A stretch of 64,000 bases of DNA from the NCBI GenBank assembly GCA_027468165.1, contig GCA_027468165.1_3951.1; one strand, given 5' to 3'. Within the stretch, counting starts at the first letter, position 1; each line of letters begins with the position of its first letter. The DNA is from a phage. The notes under the pieces are model-generated. The model saw only the letters and a program-made list of their open reading frames with translations, was not told the DNA's origin and did no database searches. Made by a program: the position numbers and the translations under genes. Of this stretch, positions 26,357 through 56,532 are shown one piece after another.

Positions 26357-27157
26357 CATCTGGTCAATACACTCGCAAGGTGTACCAGTTCTCTTATGAA
26401 CTTCTCCGCATTTCTACGGAGTGTCGGACTATATCACGTAGCAGTGATGCTACCGTTGCACTTGGGAATGGTCATTAGCTTACCACCCTACTCTACTCAG
26501 TTCATACGTTAAGTATGCCTTTCGATAGTCTCTGAACGTTTCTCTGTTAGGAATCTCTATAGTTATGTTATTTACTTAGGTAGTCAATTGCTCTTTGCAT
26601 ATTATCAACGCTATCTGCAAGCAACCCCAAAGCTCTGTTGCAATTGTGGCATAACATACCTCTTACCTTTCCGGTTTTATGGTCATGGTCAACAACAAGT
26701 TTAGCCTTGTGTCGTGAACCATTCATGATAAAACCTTCACCGCCACAAATTTGACATTTGTAATCACAGTCACGGAGTAGAGCTTCAACCTCTTCTCTTT
26801 CCAATCCATATGTTCTTAGGTAGTAATTCTTAACTCTACCTTTCTCACCGCAATGTGACGAACAATAAACTTGCCTTGCTGTTCTCGGCATGAACACCTT
26901 CTCACAACTAGGACATTTCTTAGTAAGAACCCTGTGTTCTGCCCTTCTGTCAAACTTTAATACACAACTTCTGCACCGTTTCTGATTGTATTGGTATGGT
27001 TTAAACTCCGTACCACACTCAGTGCATAATCTCTCTTCGTAACCTGCCATTGTCTCTCTCCTTGTTTTAGGAGTCCTAACAGAGACTTCGCTGCTGATTA
27101 CCATATCTTTACAGACTTAGGCTTCCAGCAATTCACAACGTTTTACATGCGCCACTG
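26357..27157 (-). mobile_element. Group I intron (about 801 nt) interrupting the DNA polymerase gene and carrying an HNH endonuclease ORF
   Basis: 5' exon ends in U paired to intron GCGCAU (P1); intron ends in G; R-like GTTCAGAGACTA and S-like GATATAGTCC elements (minus strand); exon lengths sum to 2700 nt in frame. Confidence 0.65.
26568..27050 (-). CDS. HNH homing endonuclease (intron-encoded)
   Basis: Cys-rich zinc-binding region plus VVDHDHKTGKVRGMLCHNCNRALG HNH motif; start at ATG after AAGGAGA RBS. Confidence 0.8.
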   Translation of the reverse strand: MAGYEERLCTECGTEFKPYQYNQKRCRSCVLKFDRRAEHRVLTKKCPSCEKVFMPRTARQVYCSSHCGEKGRVKNYYLRTYGLEREEVEALLRDCDYKCQICGGEGFIMNGSRHKAKLVVDHDHKTGKVRGMLCHNCNRALGLLADSVDNMQRAIDYLSK

Positions 27158-49651: not shown

Positions 49652-50533
49652 ATGAAAACATCTATCCGTGTTACAGTTCATTCACCAACTAAAGGGACTC
49701 ATGAAGAAGAATTTAACATCATCCAATTCCCTTCTGGTGAGATTGGTGGACACTTTTCACCAGAGTTTGTTGATTTTACTGCATATGCAGCATCATCTAT
49801 CAACAATGTGATTATGATTGTAAAAGGTTATGATAAAGATACATTGTTTGCTGTGGCACTTGCTAAAGAGGCTGTGGACAACTTAGTACCTCATAAGTTT
49901 GCTATGAAGACTGTTATCTTTTACTATTTACCAAATGCACGTTATGACCGTCACATGTTTAAAGGTGATGCAGCAGCTTTGAAAGTGTTTGCACAACAGG
50001 TTAATGCAATGGGTTTTGATGCAGTCTGTGCAGTTGACCCTCACAGCTATGTGCCAGATAACCTGTTTAACTGCTTCCAGAGCATTCCTCAAAAGGAAAT
50101 TGCAGTCCACTATGCAAATGACCCACTGGTTGATTACTTAGTAGCCCCAGATGCAGGTGCTTCTAAGAAGATTGCAGAAACTGCTAAAGAAGTGGATAAA
50201 CCATACATCACAATGTCTAAAGTACGTAACCTTAAGACTGGTGAAATTACTGGTATGCGAATCCTTGATGATGTTGATTTGACAGATAAAACCGTCATGA
50301 TTCTGGATGATATCTGTGATGGAGGTCGTACCTTTATAGAAGCAGCTAAACATCTTCGCGAAGCAGGTGCAAAACGTGTGGAACTCTATGTAACACATGG
50401 TATCTTCTCTAAAGGTGTTGAAAACCTTCTTGACAATGGTATTGACCATATCTACACTACAAACTCTTTAGGGGAAGCTAAAGACCGTGGTTTAGCACAT
50501 TATAGCCAAGTTACTGTAGCAAACCTTGATTGA
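49652..50533 (+). CDS. prs: Ribose-phosphate pyrophosphokinase family protein (Prs-like; possibly NARP1 ADP-ribose pyrophosphokinase)
   Basis: PRPP-binding-type motif VMILDDICDGGRT; directly upstream of a NadV-like gene. Confidence 0.65.
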   Translation: MKTSIRVTVHSPTKGTHEEEFNIIQFPSGEIGGHFSPEFVDFTAYAASSINNVIMIVKGYDKDTLFAVALAKEAVDNLVPHKFAMKTVIFYYLPNARYDRHMFKGDAAALKVFAQQVNAMGFDAVCAVDPHSYVPDNLFNCFQSIPQKEIAVHYANDPLVDYLVAPDAGASKKIAETAKEVDKPYITMSKVRNLKTGEITGMRILDDVDLTDKTVMILDDICDGGRTFIEAAKHLREAGAKRVELYVTHGIFSKGVENLLDNGIDHIYTTNSLGEAKDRGLAHYSQVTVANLD

Positions 50534-50544
50534 AACTTTATAGG

Positions 50545-50565
50545 GGGGCTTCAAAGCCCCATTTT
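50545..50565 (+). terminator. Hairpin/weak terminator
   Basis: GGGGCTT-CAA-AGCCCC hairpin followed by ATTTTG. Confidence 0.35.
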
Positions 50566-50581
50566 GAGAGAGATTAAAAAG

Positions 50582-52363
50582 ATGACTAAATCACTTTATG
50601 CAGTACCAGCAGGTTTAAACGCGGACGCTTACAAATCTGGCCATGTTTACCAATACCCTAGTGCAACAGATTACTTGATGTTCAACCTGACACCACGTAG
50701 TGATAAATGGTTTAATAGTCCTTTAGCAATTGATGGTGTAGTGGCTTTTGGTATTCAACGTTTTGTTAAAGATTACTTGATAGACCACTGGAACGCCACT
50801 TTCTTTGAACGTGATAAAAAAGAAGCAATTGACGAAATCTTAGAAGTCATGAATGGTGTTCTGGGTAAAGATGCTATCGGTCGAGAGCATTGGGAAGCAC
50901 TTCACGACTTAGGTTATCTACCAGTTGAAGTATACGCTGTAGAAGAAGGTACAGTTGTACCTATGCGTGTTCCAATGATTGTATTCCAGAACACTGTTTC
51001 AGGTTTCCATTGGGTAGCGGGATATCTGGAAGATGCTTTCTCTGCTGAGATTTGGAAGGCTTGTACCATTGCAACTATTGCATTGCACTACAAACGTATC
51101 TGTAAGAAGTGGGCTGACCTCACTTGCAACAATGACTCACATTTGCCTTATCAGTGCCATGACTTTGCTATGCGTGGTATGTCTGGCTTTACTGATGACG
51201 CATTTAACGCTGTAGGTCACTTAACAAGCTTTAAAGGGACTGATAGCTTCCCTGCGGTATATACAGCTAAACGCATTTATGGACAGTCATACCCAATCTC
51301 TGATATTGGTAGCTCTGTACCAGCCACTGAACACTCTGTCATGTGTGCAAACATTGCTTGGGAAGGTGGTAATGAGTTGATTGAAGAAGAAAGACGCTTT
51401 AAAGGTGAGTTGCAAACCTTCCGTCGTTTCTTAACAGAAACTTACCCAACTGGTATTGCAAGTGTTGTTTCAGACACTTATAATTTCTGGAGAACTGTAT
51501 CAGAAATCTTACCAGCACTTCGTAAAGAGATTATGGAACGTGACGGAAAACTGGTAATTCGTCCTGACTCTGGCGACCCTGTACATATTGTCACAGGTTA
51601 TAAAGCAATCCACTTAGAGTGCGCTAAAAAAGCTTATTACGAACACCTAAGCAAGCTGGAAGCCAGCGACACAAAGTTGAATGCTGTTCTGAACATGAAT
51701 CTTGAAGACATTCACTATATTATGGCTGGGTGGTTACGTACAGAAGGCTATGAAATGGTGGTTGACAGAGAAGACTTTGAAGTAGCTGATACAGTGCTTC
51801 TGAAAGATGCCTACATCAACGGCTCTGCAAACGTTGTAACACGTCCTGTAGCAGAGATTGATGGAGCTATTAAGACCCTGTATAACATCTTTGGGGGGAC
51901 TATCAACTCTAAAGGCTTTAAGGTACTGGATGAGCACATTGGCCTTATCTATGGTGACTCTATCACGTTGGAACGTGCAAACGAAATCCTGAAGCGTTTG
52001 TATGAAATGGGTTTTGCAAGCTCTAACGTAGTGTTTGGTGTAGGTTCTTACACTTACCAGTACATGACTCGTGACACCTTTGCATTTGCTGTCAAAGCAA
52101 CTCTTGCAAGCATTGGTGGTAAAGAGATTATGCTTGCAAAAGACCCTAAAACAGATAGCGGTGTTAAGAAGTCTGCTTTTGGTGGTGTAGCACCTATGTG
52201 GGATGGTGATAAGCTGAAAGCTGTAGATGGCTATGGATTCCAGAGCTTTGCAGATGTGCTTGAACATCCAGCTTGTGCTTTACGTTTAGTCTTTAGTGAC
52301 TCTGAGCAGTTCGGTTACACAACTCTTGGTGATATTCGAAATAATATTGACAAGCAGCTTTAA
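50582..52363 (+). CDS. nadV: Nicotinamide phosphoribosyltransferase family protein (NadV/NAMPT-like; possibly NARP1 Namat)
   Basis: About 594 aa ORF paired with the Prs-like gene; assignment rests on size, pairing and general NAMPT-like character, not a verified alignment. Confidence 0.55.
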   Translation: MTKSLYAVPAGLNADAYKSGHVYQYPSATDYLMFNLTPRSDKWFNSPLAIDGVVAFGIQRFVKDYLIDHWNATFFERDKKEAIDEILEVMNGVLGKDAIGREHWEALHDLGYLPVEVYAVEEGTVVPMRVPMIVFQNTVSGFHWVAGYLEDAFSAEIWKACTIATIALHYKRICKKWADLTCNNDSHLPYQCHDFAMRGMSGFTDDAFNAVGHLTSFKGTDSFPAVYTAKRIYGQSYPISDIGSSVPATEHSVMCANIAWEGGNELIEEERRFKGELQTFRRFLTETYPTGIASVVSDTYNFWRTVSEILPALRKEIMERDGKLVIRPDSGDPVHIVTGYKAIHLECAKKAYYEHLSKLEASDTKLNAVLNMNLEDIHYIMAGWLRTEGYEMVVDREDFEVADTVLLKDAYINGSANVVTRPVAEIDGAIKTLYNIFGGTINSKGFKVLDEHIGLIYGDSITLERANEILKRLYEMGFASSNVVFGVGSYTYQYMTRDTFAFAVKATLASIGGKEIMLAKDPKTDSGVKKSAFGGVAPMWDGDKLKAVDGYGFQSFADVLEHPACALRLVFSDSEQFGYTTLGDIRNNIDKQL

Positions 52364-52377
52364 AAGTATATGATAAG

Positions 52378-52400
52378 AGGCTCCTACGGGAGCCTTTTTA
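52378..52400 (+). terminator. Rho-independent terminator
   Basis: AGGCTCC-TAC-GGGAGCCT hairpin followed by TTTTT. Confidence 0.6.
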
Positions 52401-52416: not shown

Positions 52417-52752
52417 ATGAAAATCAAAGAGATGAATATCAATATTGTCTTAGAAGAACGTTGGGAGAACATCAAGAAGCCTGAAAATGGTCATAAGTTC
52501 CTCAACAAAATCTTAGTAGCAGCTAAAGAAGAACTGACTGGCAAGGTTGCAGCGGCAATCACGATAAAGGTGTGTGTAAAGGGTCTTCCAGACAATCACC
52601 AATTTGCACTTGACGAGTTTAAAGAAAGCTTCTACAATCCAAACAAACAGATGCTTGAAAGTAACTTTGCAGTATCTACAAGTATCGTCCATGACAGAAG
52701 CTTTACCCTTTACAAGAATATGAGAGGTGAGTCATGCAAGCATATTGGATAG
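52417..52752 (+). CDS. Hypothetical protein
   Basis: 111 aa ORF. Confidence 0.35.
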   Translation: MKIKEMNINIVLEERWENIKKPENGHKFLNKILVAAKEELTGKVAAAITIKVCVKGLPDNHQFALDEFKESFYNPNKQMLESNFAVSTSIVHDRSFTLYKNMRGESCKHIG

Positions 52753-52910
52753 AAATTTTACTGTCACTTGGTAGTGTAGCAGTATTTGTTTACCTTCTTT
52801 GCAAGTACTACGCAGAGTACAAAAAATGTGACTTCTGTAACGGAGAGGGTTATACAAGAGCAGGTTGCTGCCCTATGTGTGGTGGTTCTGGTAAAATGTT
52901 TAATAAGTAA
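52734..52910 (+). CDS. Small membrane-anchored zinc-finger protein (58 aa; DnaJ-type CxxCxGxG repeats)
   Basis: ATG after GAGGTGAG RBS; hydrophobic N-terminus then CDFCNGEG and CPMCGGSG; below the ORF-track cutoff. Confidence 0.35.
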   Translation: MQAYWIEILLSLGSVAVFVYLLCKYYAEYKKCDFCNGEGYTRAGCCPMCGGSGKMFNK

Positions 52911-52938
52911 TTTAACAGTAAACTAAGAGGAAAGTATT

Positions 52939-55305
52939 ATGCGCATGGTAAATGACCACGCAGAAGTGATTAAGAGTTCAACTTCTTTGGAGACGTCTCA
53001 AGCACAGATTACAATGACACCTGAAATGTTCAGCCTTCTGAGTTCTGGTGTATATACCTTTAAAGAGCGAGCAGTAATTCGTGAACTGTCATGTAACGCA
53101 GTAGATGCTCAGAAAGAAGCTGGAAAAGAGAACATCCCGTTCCATGTGCATTTACCTACTCGTTTTGAGCCTTACTTTGAAGTTCGTGATTTTGGAACTG
53201 GATTGACTCATGATAAAGTTATGAGTTTGTATCTAAATTACGGGGCTTCTACGAAGAATGACTCTAATGACTACATTGGTGCAATGGGTATCGGTTCAAA
53301 ATCTCCATTTGCAATTGCTCAGTCATTCACAGTATCTAGCTATGTTGATGGTATTGTTAATAAGTACTCTGTTTACCTTGAGAATGGTATCCCTCAAGTA
53401 ACTAAGCTGACTACCAACCCAACAAAAGAACCTAACGGTTTAGCTGTACGTGTAGCAGTTGCTGACCATCGTATCTCAAAGTTCTTTGAAGAAGCTGGTC
53501 ACGTATACTCATACTTTACTGTAAAACCAGAAAGTAACATTGAGTATGACGATGTATTAGCAGATATGAATGTCATTGCCCGTGAAGAAGGTGTTTATGA
53601 TGCCATGATTCATAAGCAAAGCTGGCGTTCTAGTGGTAACAAGACAGAGTTTAATGTAGTGATGGGTAACATTGCCTACCCTGTTAACATGGAAGCACTA
53701 CTTGGTGATGATTTCTTTAAAGTCTTGCCAGAGTTTTTCCGTAGGAGCGTAGACCTTGTAAACATCTATATGCCTATTGGTTCAGTTGCTATTGCAGCTT
53801 CTCGTGAAGCATTGCAGATGAATGATACAACAAAAAATGTTATCATTGAGGCTACTAAAAAGATAACTGAAGCAATTACAAAGGATGTTATCAAGAAAGT
53901 TAATAGCCAACCTACACTCATGGATGCTGCACAGGCTTATGCTGAGTTACGTTTAAACTCACGAGAGATGTTTAATGCTGTGTGTCCAAAGCTAGAGTGG
54001 GGAGGCGTTAAGCTTGATTCTTTGGAAGAAGAATTGCTAAACATTCGTCGTGGAATTATCTACGCAGAAGACGGCTCAGTCATTTATGAACGTGACGGTA
54101 AAGGTAATATTAAGGTTGATAGGAACGGAAACAACATCCCTAAAGTAGATTATCTTTATGACCCAGTTGCTTATGTCAAGTTCAACTCTTTAGAGAGTAA
54201 GATTCGTGCAACATCACTTTCCTACACTCAAGAGGCAAGTATGTTCAATATCTTTGGAGCAATGCGTAAAAGTCAAATTGAACAGTTTTTGTTTGTTATA
54301 AATGACCGTCGCAATAAAAACGGTACTGAGAAGACTGTAGGACGCAATCAAATCTTGCGTGGTGCATGTCGAGACTATGCCAGTGAGTCGAGTATGTTTC
54401 ACAGATACAATGGTATTGTCTTTGTATTCTCTACTGAGAAAGATTTAGACGACCTAATCAATCTACACAAACTTGATAAAAGCTTGTTAAAGATTGTGAA
54501 GATGTCTGATAAGGAACATCATTATCAGCGTAAAGAAGCTGTAAGAGGTGTTGTAAAACTCTGGAAAGCTGTTCCAGCAGAAGGTGTAGCTTCATACAAA
54601 GAGGTGTCAGAAGACTTAGATACGATTGAAGAGCCTCAGCTTTATATTAAGGCAGTAGGCGACACAGTTGATGGCGAATGTTTTTGCTCATCTCCAGAAG
54701 ATGTAGCTAAGTCAGTTGCCAATGTCATTGGAAAGACAGTATATGTTTTCCGAAAAGCAAATTGGAAAAAGATACCAGAAGATTGGGTTGAAGTAGATGA
54801 GAAGCTCTTGAACGACAGCTTAACTGATGTTCACTGGATTAATCACAACAGGTATATGACACGTATCTATGTGAATGGTGTCCTTGACCTTACAAGCAGT
54901 TGGATTATTGCCAGAAACTTTACGTTCAATAACAGGAAGATTTCTCGTGGCTATTGCTATTCACGAGATACAAACAAAACTATCTTCTTAGAAGGTAATG
55001 AAGATGCTGTTGAGGCAATGTTTGGCAAAATCCAATACGTTGCTGCACCGTTTGCATACACTTACACTGTTAGCAGGTTGCAAACTTTGAAAGGATGCCT
55101 TGACAACGATACAAAGCTGTACAAGAAAATTAAGAAAGCTGGCGACCGTATGGTCATTAAGGTGACAAACTATCTTTCAAAAAGAAAACAAGAAAACTTC
55201 TTGCTTTCTCATTTAGATTGGAATAAAGTGTCACCCATCGAAGTGAGTAAGTTCTTAGGCTTTGATGTGAAGTGTGTTCCAGAAGGGACTACAATTTACG
55301 ATTAA
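52939..55305 (+). CDS. rIIA: GHKL-family ATPase domain protein, rIIA-like
   Basis: N-terminal Bergerat-fold motifs ELSCNAVDA, VRDFGTGL and GAMGIGSKS; 788 aa; followed by a candidate rIIB. Confidence 0.5.
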   Translation: MRMVNDHAEVIKSSTSLETSQAQITMTPEMFSLLSSGVYTFKERAVIRELSCNAVDAQKEAGKENIPFHVHLPTRFEPYFEVRDFGTGLTHDKVMSLYLNYGASTKNDSNDYIGAMGIGSKSPFAIAQSFTVSSYVDGIVNKYSVYLENGIPQVTKLTTNPTKEPNGLAVRVAVADHRISKFFEEAGHVYSYFTVKPESNIEYDDVLADMNVIAREEGVYDAMIHKQSWRSSGNKTEFNVVMGNIAYPVNMEALLGDDFFKVLPEFFRRSVDLVNIYMPIGSVAIAASREALQMNDTTKNVIIEATKKITEAITKDVIKKVNSQPTLMDAAQAYAELRLNSREMFNAVCPKLEWGGVKLDSLEEELLNIRRGIIYAEDGSVIYERDGKGNIKVDRNGNNIPKVDYLYDPVAYVKFNSLESKIRATSLSYTQEASMFNIFGAMRKSQIEQFLFVINDRRNKNGTEKTVGRNQILRGACRDYASESSMFHRYNGIVFVFSTEKDLDDLINLHKLDKSLLKIVKMSDKEHHYQRKEAVRGVVKLWKAVPAEGVASYKEVSEDLDTIEEPQLYIKAVGDTVDGECFCSSPEDVAKSVANVIGKTVYVFRKANWKKIPEDWVEVDEKLLNDSLTDVHWINHNRYMTRIYVNGVLDLTSSWIIARNFTFNNRKISRGYCYSRDTNKTIFLEGNEDAVEAMFGKIQYVAAPFAYTYTVSRLQTLKGCLDNDTKLYKKIKKAGDRMVIKVTNYLSKRKQENFLLSHLDWNKVSPIEVSKFLGFDVKCVPEGTTIYD

Positions 55306-55310
55306 AGTGT

Positions 55311-55340
55311 TTGACAAGGGGCTTTGAAGCCCCTTAGAAT
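55311..55340 (+). promoter_or_regulatory. Sigma70-like promoter with a GC hairpin in the spacer
   Basis: TTGACA, 17-18 nt spacer containing AGGGGCTTTGAAGCCCC, then TAGAAT. Confidence 0.4.
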
Positions 55341-55384: not shown

Positions 55385-56494
55385 ATGACTACTAAAACTA
55401 AAGCACAGATTGACGCAGAAATTTACAAACTGGTTAAAGAAGGCAAGCTGACTAAAACAGCTATTGCACAGAAGTTCAATACTTCAACCCGTTCAGTTGG
55501 TCGTGCTGTAGAGCGTCATGAAGCAACCTTAAAAGGTAAGAAAAAGGCAACTTCTAAGCCAGCTAAGAAGACCCTAAAGCAAGTTGCTAAGTCAGTTAAA
55601 AAGAAAGCTGGCAAACCAGTTGAAAAGGTTGTTAAAGAGGCTGTACAAAAGGCTCCGGTAAACAAACTGCACGAAGCTATGCAGAAAGATGACAAGATTG
55701 AGTACATGATTACTGGTGACTCTGTAATTATGACTTACGGTTCAGAATCTGAAATTGTTGAGTCTACTCATCCGAACTATCAAGAGATTGTAGTTCATGT
55801 TGTGAAAGGTGAGTTCAAGAAAGCCTTTGAACTGATGAACATTCGTAAGTCTATCGAAAACTTCACTCAGGGTGCTATCACAATCAAAGGTGATAAGCTA
55901 TTCTACGGGGCTGTTGAGATGCGTTCTACTCTGGTTGACCGTATCCTTCACATGATGAAGACTGGCGATAAAGGTTTTGAACGACTTGTAATGTTCTTCG
56001 AAAAACTGATGGAAAACCCATCTAAAGATTCTGTAGAACAACTTTGGGGATTTGTATCCCACCTTGATGTTGAAATTGATGAAGAAGGTTACATCATTGG
56101 TTGGAAGAGAGTCTCTACTCGTGAAGGCAAGTTGGTTGACTCTCACACACACAAAGTGCCTAATGATTTGGGTAACATTGTAGAGATGCCACGTTGGATG
56201 GTTGATAACAACCGTAACGTAACTTGTTCTCAAGGTCTTCATGTTGGTGCTTGGGATTATGTTCGTTACTTCTCAGGTGATACCATCCTGAAGGTTCGTG
56301 TCCATCCACGAGATGTTGTATCTGTTCCAACTGATTACAACGATATGAAGATGCGTTCATCCCGTTATGAAGTTGCAGCAATCGTTGATAATCAGCGTAA
56401 AGTACTGAAAGCGTGGGATGGTAAGACTGAGGCTTTGCATGTCATCGTTGGCACTGCTGGTGAACTCATCTCCCAACGTAAACGTGAAATCTAA
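55385..56494 (+). CDS. rIIB: rIIB-like protein (putative)
   Basis: 369 aa ORF downstream of the rIIA-like gene; N-terminal HTH-like segment and Lys-rich linker; call from synteny only. Confidence 0.3.
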   Translation: MTTKTKAQIDAEIYKLVKEGKLTKTAIAQKFNTSTRSVGRAVERHEATLKGKKKATSKPAKKTLKQVAKSVKKKAGKPVEKVVKEAVQKAPVNKLHEAMQKDDKIEYMITGDSVIMTYGSESEIVESTHPNYQEIVVHVVKGEFKKAFELMNIRKSIENFTQGAITIKGDKLFYGAVEMRSTLVDRILHMMKTGDKGFERLVMFFEKLMENPSKDSVEQLWGFVSHLDVEIDEEGYIIGWKRVSTREGKLVDSHTHKVPNDLGNIVEMPRWMVDNNRNVTCSQGLHVGAWDYVRYFSGDTILKVRVHPRDVVSVPTDYNDMKMRSSRYEVAAIVDNQRKVLKAWDGKTEALHVIVGTAGELISQRKREI

Positions 56495-56510
56495 TAAGTA
56501 ATTTCTTAAA

Positions 56511-56532
56511 AGGCTGCTTCGGCGGCCTTTTT
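56511..56532 (+). terminator. Rho-independent terminator
   Basis: GGCTGC-TTCG-GCGGCC hairpin followed by TTTTTT. Confidence 0.55.

What the first reader, a model, noticed from the sequence alone, without database searches (positions are those of the whole stretch)
52734..52910. Unannotated 58-codon ORF encoding a membrane-anchored DnaJ-type zinc finger
Below the ORF-track cutoff but with a good RBS (GAGGTGAG). It has a hydrophobic N-terminal helix followed by two CxxCxGxG motifs (CDFCNGEG, CPMCGGSG). Small zinc-finger proteins in phages are frequently host-takeover factors and are routinely missed by annotation.
Basis: seen in the sequence. Interest (0 to 1): 0.4.

Follow-up and report, generated by a model that had tools for sequence, protein, structure and literature searches.

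The report
Small membrane-anchored zinc-knuckle phage protein
The 58-codon ORF is a real, conserved gene of FelixO1-like phages that encodes a tiny membrane-anchored protein with one DnaJ/anti-TRAP-type zinc knuckle; most related genomes already list it as a hypothetical or membrane protein and nobody knows its function, so it is a solid but fairly ordinary find.

Summary
ORF 52734..52910 (+) encodes 58 aa, preceded by a strong Shine-Dalgarno (GAGGTGAG, 52724-52731). It has an N-terminal hydrophobic helix and two CxxCxGxG motifs.

It is a real gene:
- The frame is intact in all 29 Ounavirinae loci examined.
- pN/pS is 0.12 in this frame against 0.9-1.6 in the other forward frames.
- It sits directly upstream of rIIA in four Ounavirinae genera.
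- A homologue lies next to nrdH in T4-like Krischvirus phages.

It is a full-length member of phrog_3931 (function unknown). About 85% of related GenBank records sampled appear to annotate it ("hypothetical" or "membrane protein"), so it is not generally unannotated.

A family profile matches the DnaJ Cys-rich domain (1EXK, E=8e-6). The AlphaFold model (TM helix plus knuckle) superposes best on anti-TRAP, which has the same Cx2Cx10Cx2C spacing. It is not a DnaJ: there is no J-domain, only one zinc site, and all curated cut-offs are missed.

Best reading: an early-expressed, N-out/C-in bitopic inner-membrane protein whose cytoplasmic one-zinc knuckle is a tethered protein-binding module. The target is unknown, and the host-takeover or counter-defence role is plausible but untested.

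Interest is modest (0.3): a new member of a known kind.

The parts
52347..52374 (+). Sigma-70-like promoter (TTGACA, 16 nt, TATGAT) overlapping the end of the upstream NAD-pathway gene; likely start of the unit ORF111 - mini-ORF - rIIA
   Evidence: 11/12 consensus match. The -35 hexamer is invariant and the -10 nearly so across Felixouna-, Moogle- and Suspvirus (alignment A5). Function is inferred, not shown.
52375..52398 (+). GC-rich hairpin plus T-run (terminator-like), immediately after the promoter -10 and the upstream gene's stop
   Evidence: 10-bp stem, 5 GC pairs, T-run. Nearly invariant across three genera. Annotated as a terminator in phage Mordin.
52417..52752 (+). 111-aa ORF (phrog_4262, function unknown) whose last 19 nt overlap the mini-ORF start, suggesting translational coupling
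   Evidence: The same 19-nt overlap occurs in Moogle- and Suspvirus. The AF2 model is beta-alpha-beta-alpha-beta-beta with only weak IF3-C-like matches.
52724..52731 (+). Shine-Dalgarno sequence GAGGTGAG of the mini-ORF
   Evidence: Read directly from the sequence. An equivalent GGAG(A/G) lies 6 nt upstream of the ATG in all 29 relatives.
52734..52910 (+). 58-aa coding gene: membrane-anchored one-zinc knuckle protein (phrog_3931)
   Evidence: Intact in 29/29 loci. pN/pS 0.12, with 29/41 variable sites at codon position 3. phrog_3931 E=1.3e-32.
52749..52802 (+). Predicted transmembrane helix (residues about 6-23) carrying the invariant polar residues E7 and S11
   Evidence: Hydrophobicity and charge analysis. 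AF2 helix at residues 4-26. E7 and S11 are invariant in alignment A1.
52827..52895 (+). Zinc knuckle (residues 32-54): CDFCNGEG-x6-CPMCGGSG-K. Inferred Zn ligands are C32, C35, C46 and C49, with a near-invariant extra C45
   Evidence: Invariant C, G and K positions. C45 is replaced by P in P0030. Matches DnaJ CR domain 1EXK at E=8e-6. Anti-TRAP superposes at rmsd 1.0 A over 29 residues.
52939..55305 (+). rIIA homologue, 28 nt downstream with no terminator between; probably co-transcribed
   Evidence: phrog_612 E=1.6e-188. Annotated as rIIA in relatives. No terminator-like site lies between the two genes.
55385..56494 (+). rIIB homologue, preceded by its own promoter-like site (55311-55340) and followed by a terminator-like hairpin (56508-56531)
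   Evidence: phrog_609 E=6.6e-90; signal scan.

Best explanation
The ORF is a genuine accessory gene of FelixO1-like phages, probably expressed early. It appears to be transcribed from a conserved sigma-70-type promoter together with the upstream 111-aa ORF and rIIA, and translated from its own strong Shine-Dalgarno, possibly coupled to the upstream ORF through a 19-nt overlap. The 58-aa product inserts into the inner membrane as a single-pass protein. About five N-terminal residues face the periplasm. Residues about 6-23 form the transmembrane helix, which has a conserved Glu7/Ser11 polar face. The C-terminal roughly 35 residues lie in the cytoplasm. There, C32, C35, C46 and C49 bind one zinc ion and fold a beta-hairpin knuckle of the DnaJ Cys-rich / anti-TRAP type. 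With no J-domain and no client-binding domains it cannot act as an Hsp40. It most likely works as anti-TRAP and plant FIP do, as a small zinc-stabilised protein-binding module, here held at the cytoplasmic face of the membrane to bind, recruit or block a host or phage partner. Shown here: coding status, conservation, motif and fold similarity, and synteny. Inferred: membrane topology, zinc binding, expression timing and the protein-binding role. The partner is unknown.
For: Coding status: the frame is intact in 29/29 Ounavirinae loci. 29 of 41 variable sites are at codon position 3, and pN/pS is 0.12 versus 0.93-1.57 in the other forward frames. There are 259 phage records with a tblastn match, 258 of them near full length. 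The gene occupies the same position in four Ounavirinae genera including the basal Kolesnikvirus and also occurs in Krischvirus.
Membrane anchor and topology: a TM-like segment is present in all 7 representatives. None has K or R N-terminal of it and all have 3-6 K/R C-terminal of it. AF2 predicts a helix at residues 4-26.
Zinc knuckle: C32, C35, G37, G44, C46, C49, G51, G53 and K54 are invariant. The family profile hits DnaJ CR domain 1EXK at E=8e-6 and DNAJA3 2CTT at 0.002. The top Foldseek PDB hits are anti-TRAP 3LD0, 3LCZ and 2BX9, with rmsd 1.0-1.2 A over 29 residues and probability 0.93-0.99. The spacing is the same Cx2Cx10Cx2C. In anti-TRAP, zinc binding by these motifs is required for function (PMC2896485).
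Architectural precedent: Arabidopsis FIP has a TM anchor plus a C4 finger made of two CXXCXGXG motifs on the stromal (cytoplasm-equivalent) side, and it binds FtsH5 (PMC5915565).
Expression unit: a conserved promoter/hairpin/RBS module.
Genomic setting: the gene lies between genes shown in Bas63 to counter defence systems, namely NAD+ reconstitution g79/g80 and RIIA/B (PMC11482910).
Against: There is no direct evidence of expression, membrane insertion, zinc content or any partner. The juxtamembrane flank is net negative in Moogle- and Suspvirus, so the topology call rests on K/R counts alone. The non-motif surface positions of the knuckle are poorly conserved (mean top-residue frequency 0.36, versus 0.76 for the N-terminus and first half of the TM). 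That fits a conserved binding surface poorly and may mean the membrane-embedded part is the functional end. Matches to curated DnaJ and anti-TRAP models are all below cut-off. Foldseek E-values are non-significant because the domain is so small. The AF2 model has only moderate confidence (pLDDT 77.8, 10-sequence alignment). A near-invariant fifth Cys (C45), and differently placed extra Cys residues in Kolesnikvirus, are not explained by a purely structural Zn site.
Confidence: 0.55

Rival explanations
1. It is an rII accessory factor. The mini-protein would act as the membrane anchor or adaptor that holds RIIA/RIIB, which have no transmembrane segment of their own, at the inner membrane, so it would belong functionally to the rII anti-exclusion module. 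This is a specific version of the tethered-adaptor idea.
For: It lies directly upstream of rIIA with no intervening terminator in four Ounavirinae genera, even where rIIA identity falls to 50%. It is the only protein in the cassette with a TM-like segment; maximum KD19 is 1.29 for RIIA and 0.69 for RIIB. T4 RIIA is annotated as a 'membrane integrity protector'. An unrelated small TM protein also sits upstream of rIIA in a Slopekvirus.
Against: rIIA homologues occur in about 2,925 phage records but the mini-protein in only about 320. In Krischvirus the homologue sits next to nrdH, far from rII. T4 rIIA.1 is an unrelated soluble helical protein. Ounavirinae genomes are broadly syntenic, so adjacency carries little weight.
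Confidence: 0.12
2. The orientation is reversed (N-in/C-out). The Cys-rich domain would then be periplasmic and disulfide-bonded rather than zinc-bound, acting at the envelope, for example in superinfection exclusion or lysis-timing signalling, like small T4 periplasmic or membrane proteins.
For: It is a small bitopic protein next to genes annotated as 'lysis inhibitor'. It has an odd number of conserved cysteines, including a CC pair. The juxtamembrane flank is acidic in Moogle- and Suspvirus.
Against: No K or R precedes the helix in any of 7 representatives, and all basic residues follow it. By the positive-inside rule (established knowledge) that places the C-terminus in the cytoplasm. The Gly-rich CxxCxGxG pair is a zinc-binding signature. 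There is no lipobox or signal-peptidase-like site, and C23 is not conserved.
Confidence: 0.1
3. It is a redox or metal-cluster protein rather than a binding module. The five to six cysteines would perform thiol-disulfide exchange, as reported for DnaJ CR domains and plant DnaJ-like zinc-finger proteins, or would bind a different cofactor, possibly linked to a redoxin.
For: There is a near-invariant extra Cys adjacent to a ligand Cys (C45), and Kolesnikvirus has extra Cys at other ligand-adjacent positions. In Krischvirus the ORF overlaps the end of the nrdH glutaredoxin gene by 11 nt. Only the motif scaffold of the knuckle is conserved, not its surface.
Against: P0030 lacks C45. Ounavirinae have no adjacent redoxin; their upstream ORF has no CxxC motif and a different fold. 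No catalytic family matched.
Confidence: 0.1
4. It is a chance ORF, or a non-functional remnant, lying in the 5' leader of rIIA.
For: It is very short, has no curated family above threshold, and is omitted by some annotators. A few database entries are frameshifted.
Against: There is strong frame-specific purifying selection. The motif is conserved at 45-55% identity across genera and in an unrelated phage family. The motif pair is never seen in shuffles. The examined frameshift is a single-base deletion in a record that carries another frameshifted CDS.
Confidence: 0.02

Closest known systems
Anti-TRAP (RtpA) of Bacillus (PDB 2BX9, 3LCZ, 3LD0)
   Same: It is a stand-alone protein of about 53 aa with two CxxCxGxG motifs binding one zinc, and it has the identical Cx2Cx10Cx2C spacing. 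It is the best structural match to the model (rmsd 1.0 A over 29 residues). It acts purely by binding and blocking another protein, and zinc is required for that.
   Different: Anti-TRAP is soluble and trimerises or dodecamerises through an N-terminal segment and a C-terminal helix, both absent here. It has no TM helix and no fifth Cys. The sequence match is weak (E=0.11-0.58; NCBIfam 10.9 bits versus a cut-off of 65). Its target, TRAP, is a Bacillus protein.
DnaJ/Hsp40 cysteine-rich zinc-finger domain (Pfam PF00684; PDB 1EXK, 2CTT)
   Same: It has the same CxxCxGxG repeat signature. It is the only significant solved-structure sequence match for the family profile (E=8e-6).
   Different: DnaJ has four repeats forming two interleaved zinc centres, plus a J-domain, a G/F region and C-terminal client-binding domains. 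This protein has two repeats, one possible zinc site and nothing else apart from a TM helix. It scores below the Pfam gathering threshold (14.9 versus 32.7 bits).
Plant membrane-anchored DnaJ-like zinc-finger proteins, especially Arabidopsis FIP (At5g02160)
   Same: It has the same architecture: a hydrophobic anchor followed by a C4 finger made of two CXXCXGXG motifs, no J-domain, and the finger on the cytoplasm-equivalent (stromal) side. It acts by binding a membrane protein, FtsH5 (PMC5915565).
   Different: FIP is eukaryotic, larger, carries a transit peptide and is reported only in land plants. Homology to the phage family was not tested here because no FIP sequence was at hand. No FtsH link is known for the phage protein.
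phrog_3931 and other small uncharacterised phage DnaJ-like / anti-TRAP-like knuckle proteins (e.g. RB49 Q7Y3T0, phiEa21-4 protein 117)
   Same: The protein is a direct full-length member of phrog_3931 (E=1.3e-32). The Krischvirus and Kolesnikvirus proteins fall in the same PHROG. BFVD lists many 46-130-aa phage proteins with the same knuckle.
   Different: No member has a known function, so membership names the family but explains nothing.

Membership tests
phrog_3931 (phage protein family, function unknown) | Full-length match to the family HMM | tested here: met
   E=1.3e-32, residues 1-58 against profile positions 1-59 of 59. Krischvirus ORF E=4.6e-9. Kolesnikvirus ORF E=2.5e-18.
DnaJ cysteine-rich zinc-finger domain (Pfam PF00684 DnaJ_CXXCXGXG) | CxxCxGxG repeats | tested here: met
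   CDFCNGEG (32-39) and CPMCGGSG (46-53). The Cys and Gly positions are invariant in the family.
DnaJ cysteine-rich zinc-finger domain (Pfam PF00684 DnaJ_CXXCXGXG) | Score above the Pfam gathering threshold | tested here: not met
   14.9 bits versus a cut-off of 32.7, E=0.032. The family profile does hit the solved DnaJ CR domain 1EXK at E=8e-6, so remote homology of the repeat unit is likely.
DnaJ cysteine-rich zinc-finger domain (Pfam PF00684 DnaJ_CXXCXGXG) | Four repeats forming two zinc centres | tested here: not met
   Only two repeats exist in the 58 aa.
DnaJ / Hsp40 chaperone (TIGR02349) | J-domain and C-terminal client-binding domains | tested here: not met
   There is no J-domain hit. 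The match covers only 29 residues, at 17 bits versus a cut-off of 377. The 'chaperone protein DnaJ' label in the Erwinia phage Tian record is therefore an over-annotation.
Anti-TRAP (RtpA, NF058604) | Single zinc site formed by two adjacent CxxCxGxG motifs with Cx2Cx10Cx2C spacing | tested here: met
   C32-x2-C35-x10-C46-x2-C49 aligns column for column with 3LCZ residues 11-35. Structural superposition gives rmsd 1.0 A. Zinc occupancy itself was not tested.
Anti-TRAP (RtpA, NF058604) | Score above the NCBIfam cut-off, and the C-terminal helix / N-terminal segment that build the trimer | tested here: not met
   10.9 bits versus a cut-off of 65. The protein ends 9 residues after the last Cys, and the model shows no C-terminal helix.
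Membrane-anchored J-less DnaJ-like zinc-finger proteins (plant FIP type) | Architecture of one hydrophobic anchor plus one C4 finger made of two CXXCXGXG motifs, without a J-domain | tested here: met
   compared with the description of FIP in PMC5915565.
Membrane-anchored J-less DnaJ-like zinc-finger proteins (plant FIP type) | Sequence homology to FIP and binding to FtsH | not tested
Any zinc finger | Stoichiometric zinc bound by the four Cys | not testable with these tools
   Needs ICP-MS or PAR assay on purified protein.
DUF5351 (Pfam PF17302) | Score above the gathering threshold | tested here: not met
   18.5 bits versus a cut-off of 27, E=0.0024.

The most novel reading that the evidence does not exclude
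The mini-protein could be the missing membrane tether, or a regulator, of a counter-defence module. One version is that it anchors RIIA/RIIB, which lack any TM segment, at the inner membrane. The other, by analogy with plant FIP, is that it docks onto and modulates a host membrane machine such as FtsH. Its conserved Glu7/Ser11 intramembrane face would provide a second, lipid-embedded interaction site. Either version would give a molecular handle on how the long-enigmatic rII locus or early host takeover operates at the membrane.
Probability: 0.12. Interest if true: 0.6.

Novelty: new member of a known kind. Interest (0 to 1): 0.3.

Why it matters
Small J-less DnaJ/anti-TRAP-type zinc knuckles are common in phage genomes, and every viral structural neighbour found here was either unnamed or named only by domain similarity. 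This one is unusually tractable. It is conserved across a whole subfamily of E. coli and Salmonella phages, including the genetically accessible Bas63. It sits between two experimentally validated counter-defence modules (NAD+ reconstitution and RIIA/B). It also combines a conserved polar intramembrane face with a cytoplasmic zinc knuckle. If it proved to be an adaptor for RIIA/RIIB or an inhibitor of a host membrane protein, that would assign a first function to this class. As things stand it is a well-supported hypothetical protein and not a surprise.

Tried and rejected
1. Curated families. Pfam, NCBIfam and PADLOC gave only sub-threshold motif hits: DUF5351, DnaJ_CXXCXGXG, Lar, RtpA and PDC-M01B.
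2. Wider homologues. The word-indexed search and the exhaustive HMMER search found only Ounavirinae- and Krischvirus-type minis, a few other TM-plus-knuckle proteins, true DnaJ, and long tandem-knuckle proteins. None has a functional annotation.
3. T4 rIIA.1 as a positional analogue. It is an unrelated soluble helical protein.
4. The alternative +1-frame ORF (52786..52926) and the antisense ORF (52732..52857). The +1 frame has pN/pS 1.57. The one antisense frame with a low ratio (0.19) is probably a codon-position shadow of the sense gene (inference); whether that frame is the one holding the 52732..52857 ORF was not checked. The 63-aa 'proteins' that read into the +1 frame are single-base-deletion artefacts or rare mutants.
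5. An RNA element or unusual structure around the start. There are no Rfam matches above noise, and the fold z-score is 0.42.
6. The upstream 111-aa ORF as a clue. Homologues are shallow, the AF2 model is moderate, and only weak IF3-C-like fold hits appeared (E>=0.009). The Kolesnikvirus positional equivalent belongs to a different PHROG.
7. A lipoprotein or cleavable signal peptide. There is no lipobox, and C23 is not conserved.
8. Literature. The PhageMaP Bas63 paper has no statement on the genes between g80 and g84 and no supplements are held. Other searches found nothing on this protein.

Full report
**What is at the coordinates.** The window is a FelixO1-like phage (Ounavirinae, Felixounavirus). 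The region is 96-98% identical to many Escherichia and Salmonella phages. The ORF is exactly as described: 52734..52910 (+), ATG start, 58 codons, product MQAYWIEILLSLGSVAVFVYLLCKYYAEYKKCDFCNGEGYTRAGCCPMCGGSGKMFNK. GAGGTGAG lies at 52724-52731, and its GAGG core ends 6 nt before the ATG. The two CxxCxGxG motifs are at residues 32-39 and 46-53. The pair is not a chance event: in the six-frame translation of the window there is 1 paired occurrence, against 0.00 in 30 shuffles, and 3 single motifs against 0.13.

**Is it a gene?** Yes.
- All 29 Ounavirinae loci I extracted keep the frame open at 57-60 codons and have a GGAG-type Shine-Dalgarno 6 nt upstream.
- Among 22 Felixounavirus haplotypes, 29 of 41 variable sites fall at codon position 3. 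pN/pS is 0.12 in this frame and 0.93-1.57 in the other two forward frames. The single antisense frame with a low ratio is probably a codon-position shadow of the sense gene.
- tblastn finds the protein in 259 phage records, 258 of them near full length.
- The 63-aa database 'homologues' that read into the +1 frame come from single-base deletions. The one I examined, phiWec174, has a GGGTT to GGGT change in a record that also flags another frameshifted CDS. These are errors or rare mutants, not an alternative product.

**Is it unannotated?** Mostly not.
- The 100%-identical copy in phage EF202P1 is an annotated CDS.
- RefSeq calls it 'membrane protein' in BPS17W1.
- In the spread sample, about 47 of 55 annotated records list two features under the match (the mini-ORF plus the overlapping neighbour), which I take to mean the mini-ORF is annotated. 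I checked individual records directly rather than all 47.
- It is a full-length member of phrog_3931, function unknown (E=1.3e-32), and is present in UniProt/BFVD.
- It is sometimes missed. Phage warpig leaves the gap empty, and several Krischvirus records, including 011D4, omit the homologue.
- One Erwinia phage record over-annotates it as 'chaperone protein DnaJ'.

**Family and distribution.**
- The gene sits directly upstream of rIIA in Felixounavirus, Mooglevirus, Suspvirus and Kolesnikvirus. Kolesnikvirus is the basal split of the subfamily in the BASEL phylogeny (PMC8594841), so the gene is probably ancestral to Ounavirinae.
- A 52-55-aa homologue with the same architecture occurs in T4-like Krischvirus (RB49 group). 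There it overlaps the end of nrdH and is far from rII.
- Both deep searches found little beyond this: a few metagenomic minis, other TM-plus-knuckle proteins, long proteins with 5-7 tandem knuckles, and true DnaJ.

**Anatomy.** Alignment A1 (13 sequences, identity down to 39%) has these invariant residues: M1, E7, S11, C32, C35, G37, G44, C45, C46, C49, G51, G53 and K54.
- One metagenomic member has Pro at position 45. The strict tetrad is therefore C32, C35, C46 and C49, with C45 as a near-invariant extra. Kolesnikvirus places its extra Cys residues elsewhere.
- Every representative has a TM-like segment (mean Kyte-Doolittle 2.15-2.94), no K or R before it, and 3-6 K/R after it. By the positive-inside rule (established knowledge) this predicts N-out/C-in, which puts the Cys-rich unit in the reducing cytoplasm where a Cys4 zinc site is plausible. 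This is an inference.
- Conservation is highest in the N-terminus and first half of the helix (0.76) and at the motif positions. The non-motif knuckle surface is variable (0.36).

**Relation to known domains.**
- Single-sequence hits to curated models are all below cut-off: DUF5351, DnaJ_CXXCXGXG, DnaJ_bact and RtpA.
- The family profile matches the solved DnaJ Cys-rich domain 1EXK at E=8e-6 and DNAJA3 2CTT at 0.002. Anti-TRAP scores 0.11-0.42.
- An AlphaFold2 model (pLDDT 77.8) gives a helix at residues 4-26 followed by a small beta-hairpin knuckle.
- Its best PDB matches are anti-TRAP 3LD0, 3LCZ and 2BX9 (rmsd 1.0-1.2 A over 29 residues, probability 0.93-0.99, E-values non-significant for so short a domain), followed by DnaJ CR domains.
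- The Cx2Cx10Cx2C spacing is identical to anti-TRAP. [quoted passage not shown]
- BFVD shows many 46-130-aa phage proteins with this knuckle. All are unnamed or carry only domain-similarity names such as 'DnaJ-like' or 'Anti-TRAP domain-containing'.

The domain call 'DnaJ-type zinc finger' is therefore right at the level of the repeat unit. The protein is not a DnaJ, since it has no J-domain and one zinc site instead of two, and it is not an anti-TRAP orthologue, since it has no oligomerisation elements and a different host.

**Context and expression.** Upstream lie the two NAD+-reconstitution genes (49652..50533 and 50564..52363). In the Felixounavirus Bas63 these correspond to g79 and g80, which counter Sir2-HerA and other systems. 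RIIA/B (g84/g85) counter qatABCD there (PMC11482910).
- A sigma-70-like promoter (52347-52374, 11/12 match) is followed immediately by a GC hairpin with a T-run (52375-52398) and an RBS. This module sits between the NAD genes and the 111-aa ORF and is almost invariant across three genera.
- The mini-ORF overlaps the 111-aa ORF by 19 nt in three genera and is 28 nt from rIIA, with no terminator between them.
- I infer early, host-RNA-polymerase transcription of a unit running ORF111 - mini-ORF - rIIA, with possible translational coupling.
- The 111-aa ORF (phrog_4262) gave only weak IF3-C-like fold matches. In Kolesnikvirus it is replaced by a different PHROG.

**Mechanism.** The best-supported reading is a bitopic inner-membrane miniprotein whose cytoplasmic one-zinc knuckle acts as a tethered protein-binding module. 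This follows the precedents of anti-TRAP, which is a pure protein inhibitor, and Arabidopsis FIP, which has a TM anchor plus a finger of two CXXCXGXG motifs on the stromal side and binds FtsH5 (PMC5915565). I put this at about 0.55. The structural part is much firmer than the functional part.

Rival readings:
- **rII-specific anchor (0.12).** For: conserved adjacency, and RIIA/RIIB lack any TM-like segment. Against: rIIA occurs in about 2,925 phage records and the mini-protein in about 320; the Krischvirus copy is elsewhere; T4 rIIA.1 is unrelated.
- **Periplasmic, disulfide-bonded orientation (0.10).** The K/R distribution argues against it.
- **Redox or cofactor role (0.10).** Suggested by the extra Cys residues and the nrdH adjacency in Krischvirus.
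- **Chance ORF (0.02).** Effectively refuted.

**Verdict.** This is a new member of a known kind (J-less DnaJ/anti-TRAP-type zinc-knuckle proteins) and already catalogued as phrog_3931. Interest is 0.3. It is tractable because of its location between two validated counter-defence modules in a genetically accessible phage group, but nothing about it is surprising.

Noticed in passing
window 49652-52363: The 'ribose-phosphate pyrophosphokinase' and 'nicotinamide phosphoribosyltransferase' genes just upstream correspond to Bas63 g79/g80. These are the NAD+-reconstitution pair shown to counter Sir2-HerA, retron Ec86 and hhe (PMC11482910). The small ORF therefore sits between two validated counter-defence modules.
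   Followed up: partly
window 52347-52398: A sigma-70-like promoter is immediately followed by a terminator-like hairpin, so the likely transcription start falls inside the hairpin. The module is almost invariant across three Ounavirinae genera. It may terminate upstream transcripts while starting new ones that lack the 5' arm of the hairpin.
   Followed up: partly
window 52417-52752: The 111-aa ORF (phrog_4262, function unknown) overlaps the mini-ORF by 19 nt. The AF2 model is beta-alpha-beta-alpha-beta-beta, with only weak IF3 C-terminal-domain-like matches (E>=0.009). Kolesnikvirus has a different PHROG (27920) in this position.
   Followed up: partly
protein P0042 (95.7-kb metagenomic contig): This is a chimeric 116-aa protein: the N-terminus of the PRPP-synthetase-like gene fused to the C-terminus of the 111-aa ORF. 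It implies a natural deletion that removes most of the NAD+-reconstitution genes in one relative.
   Followed up: no
L003 2495-2653 (Escherichia phage vB_EcoM_011D4, Krischvirus): An unannotated 52-aa homologue (TM helix plus CxxCNGxG...CCxxCxGSGK) overlaps the end of the nrdH glutaredoxin gene by 11 nt. Several other Krischvirus records also omit it.
   Followed up: partly
proteins P0011-P0020: These are long metagenomic proteins (about 230-560 aa) with 5-7 tandem copies of the same CPxCxGxG-x5-CPxCxGxG unit. Some have an HNH-like N-terminal region. Function is unknown.
   Followed up: no
window about 26756-27026, minus strand: Another ORF region is rich in CxxC pairs, including a third CxxCxGxG motif (CQICGGEG). 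It is probably a separate zinc-ribbon protein.
   Followed up: no
L039 2254-2490 (Klebsiella phage W9-2, Slopekvirus) and L037 2200-2403 (T4 rIIA.1): The slot just upstream of rIIA holds an unrelated 78-aa TM protein in Slopekvirus and a soluble helical 67-aa protein (rIIA.1) in T4. Small ORFs upstream of rIIA are common but not homologous to one another.
   Followed up: partly
window 55385-56494 (rIIB): The N-terminal roughly 50 residues of the rIIB homologue give sub-threshold helix-turn-helix hits (HTH_Tnp_ISL3, E=0.0013, and others).
   Followed up: no
L038 2262-2426 (Erwinia phage Tian): The 54-aa Kolesnikvirus orthologue is labelled gene dnaJ / 'chaperone protein DnaJ' in GenBank. This is an automatic over-annotation of a 54-aa protein that has no J-domain.
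   Followed up: yes
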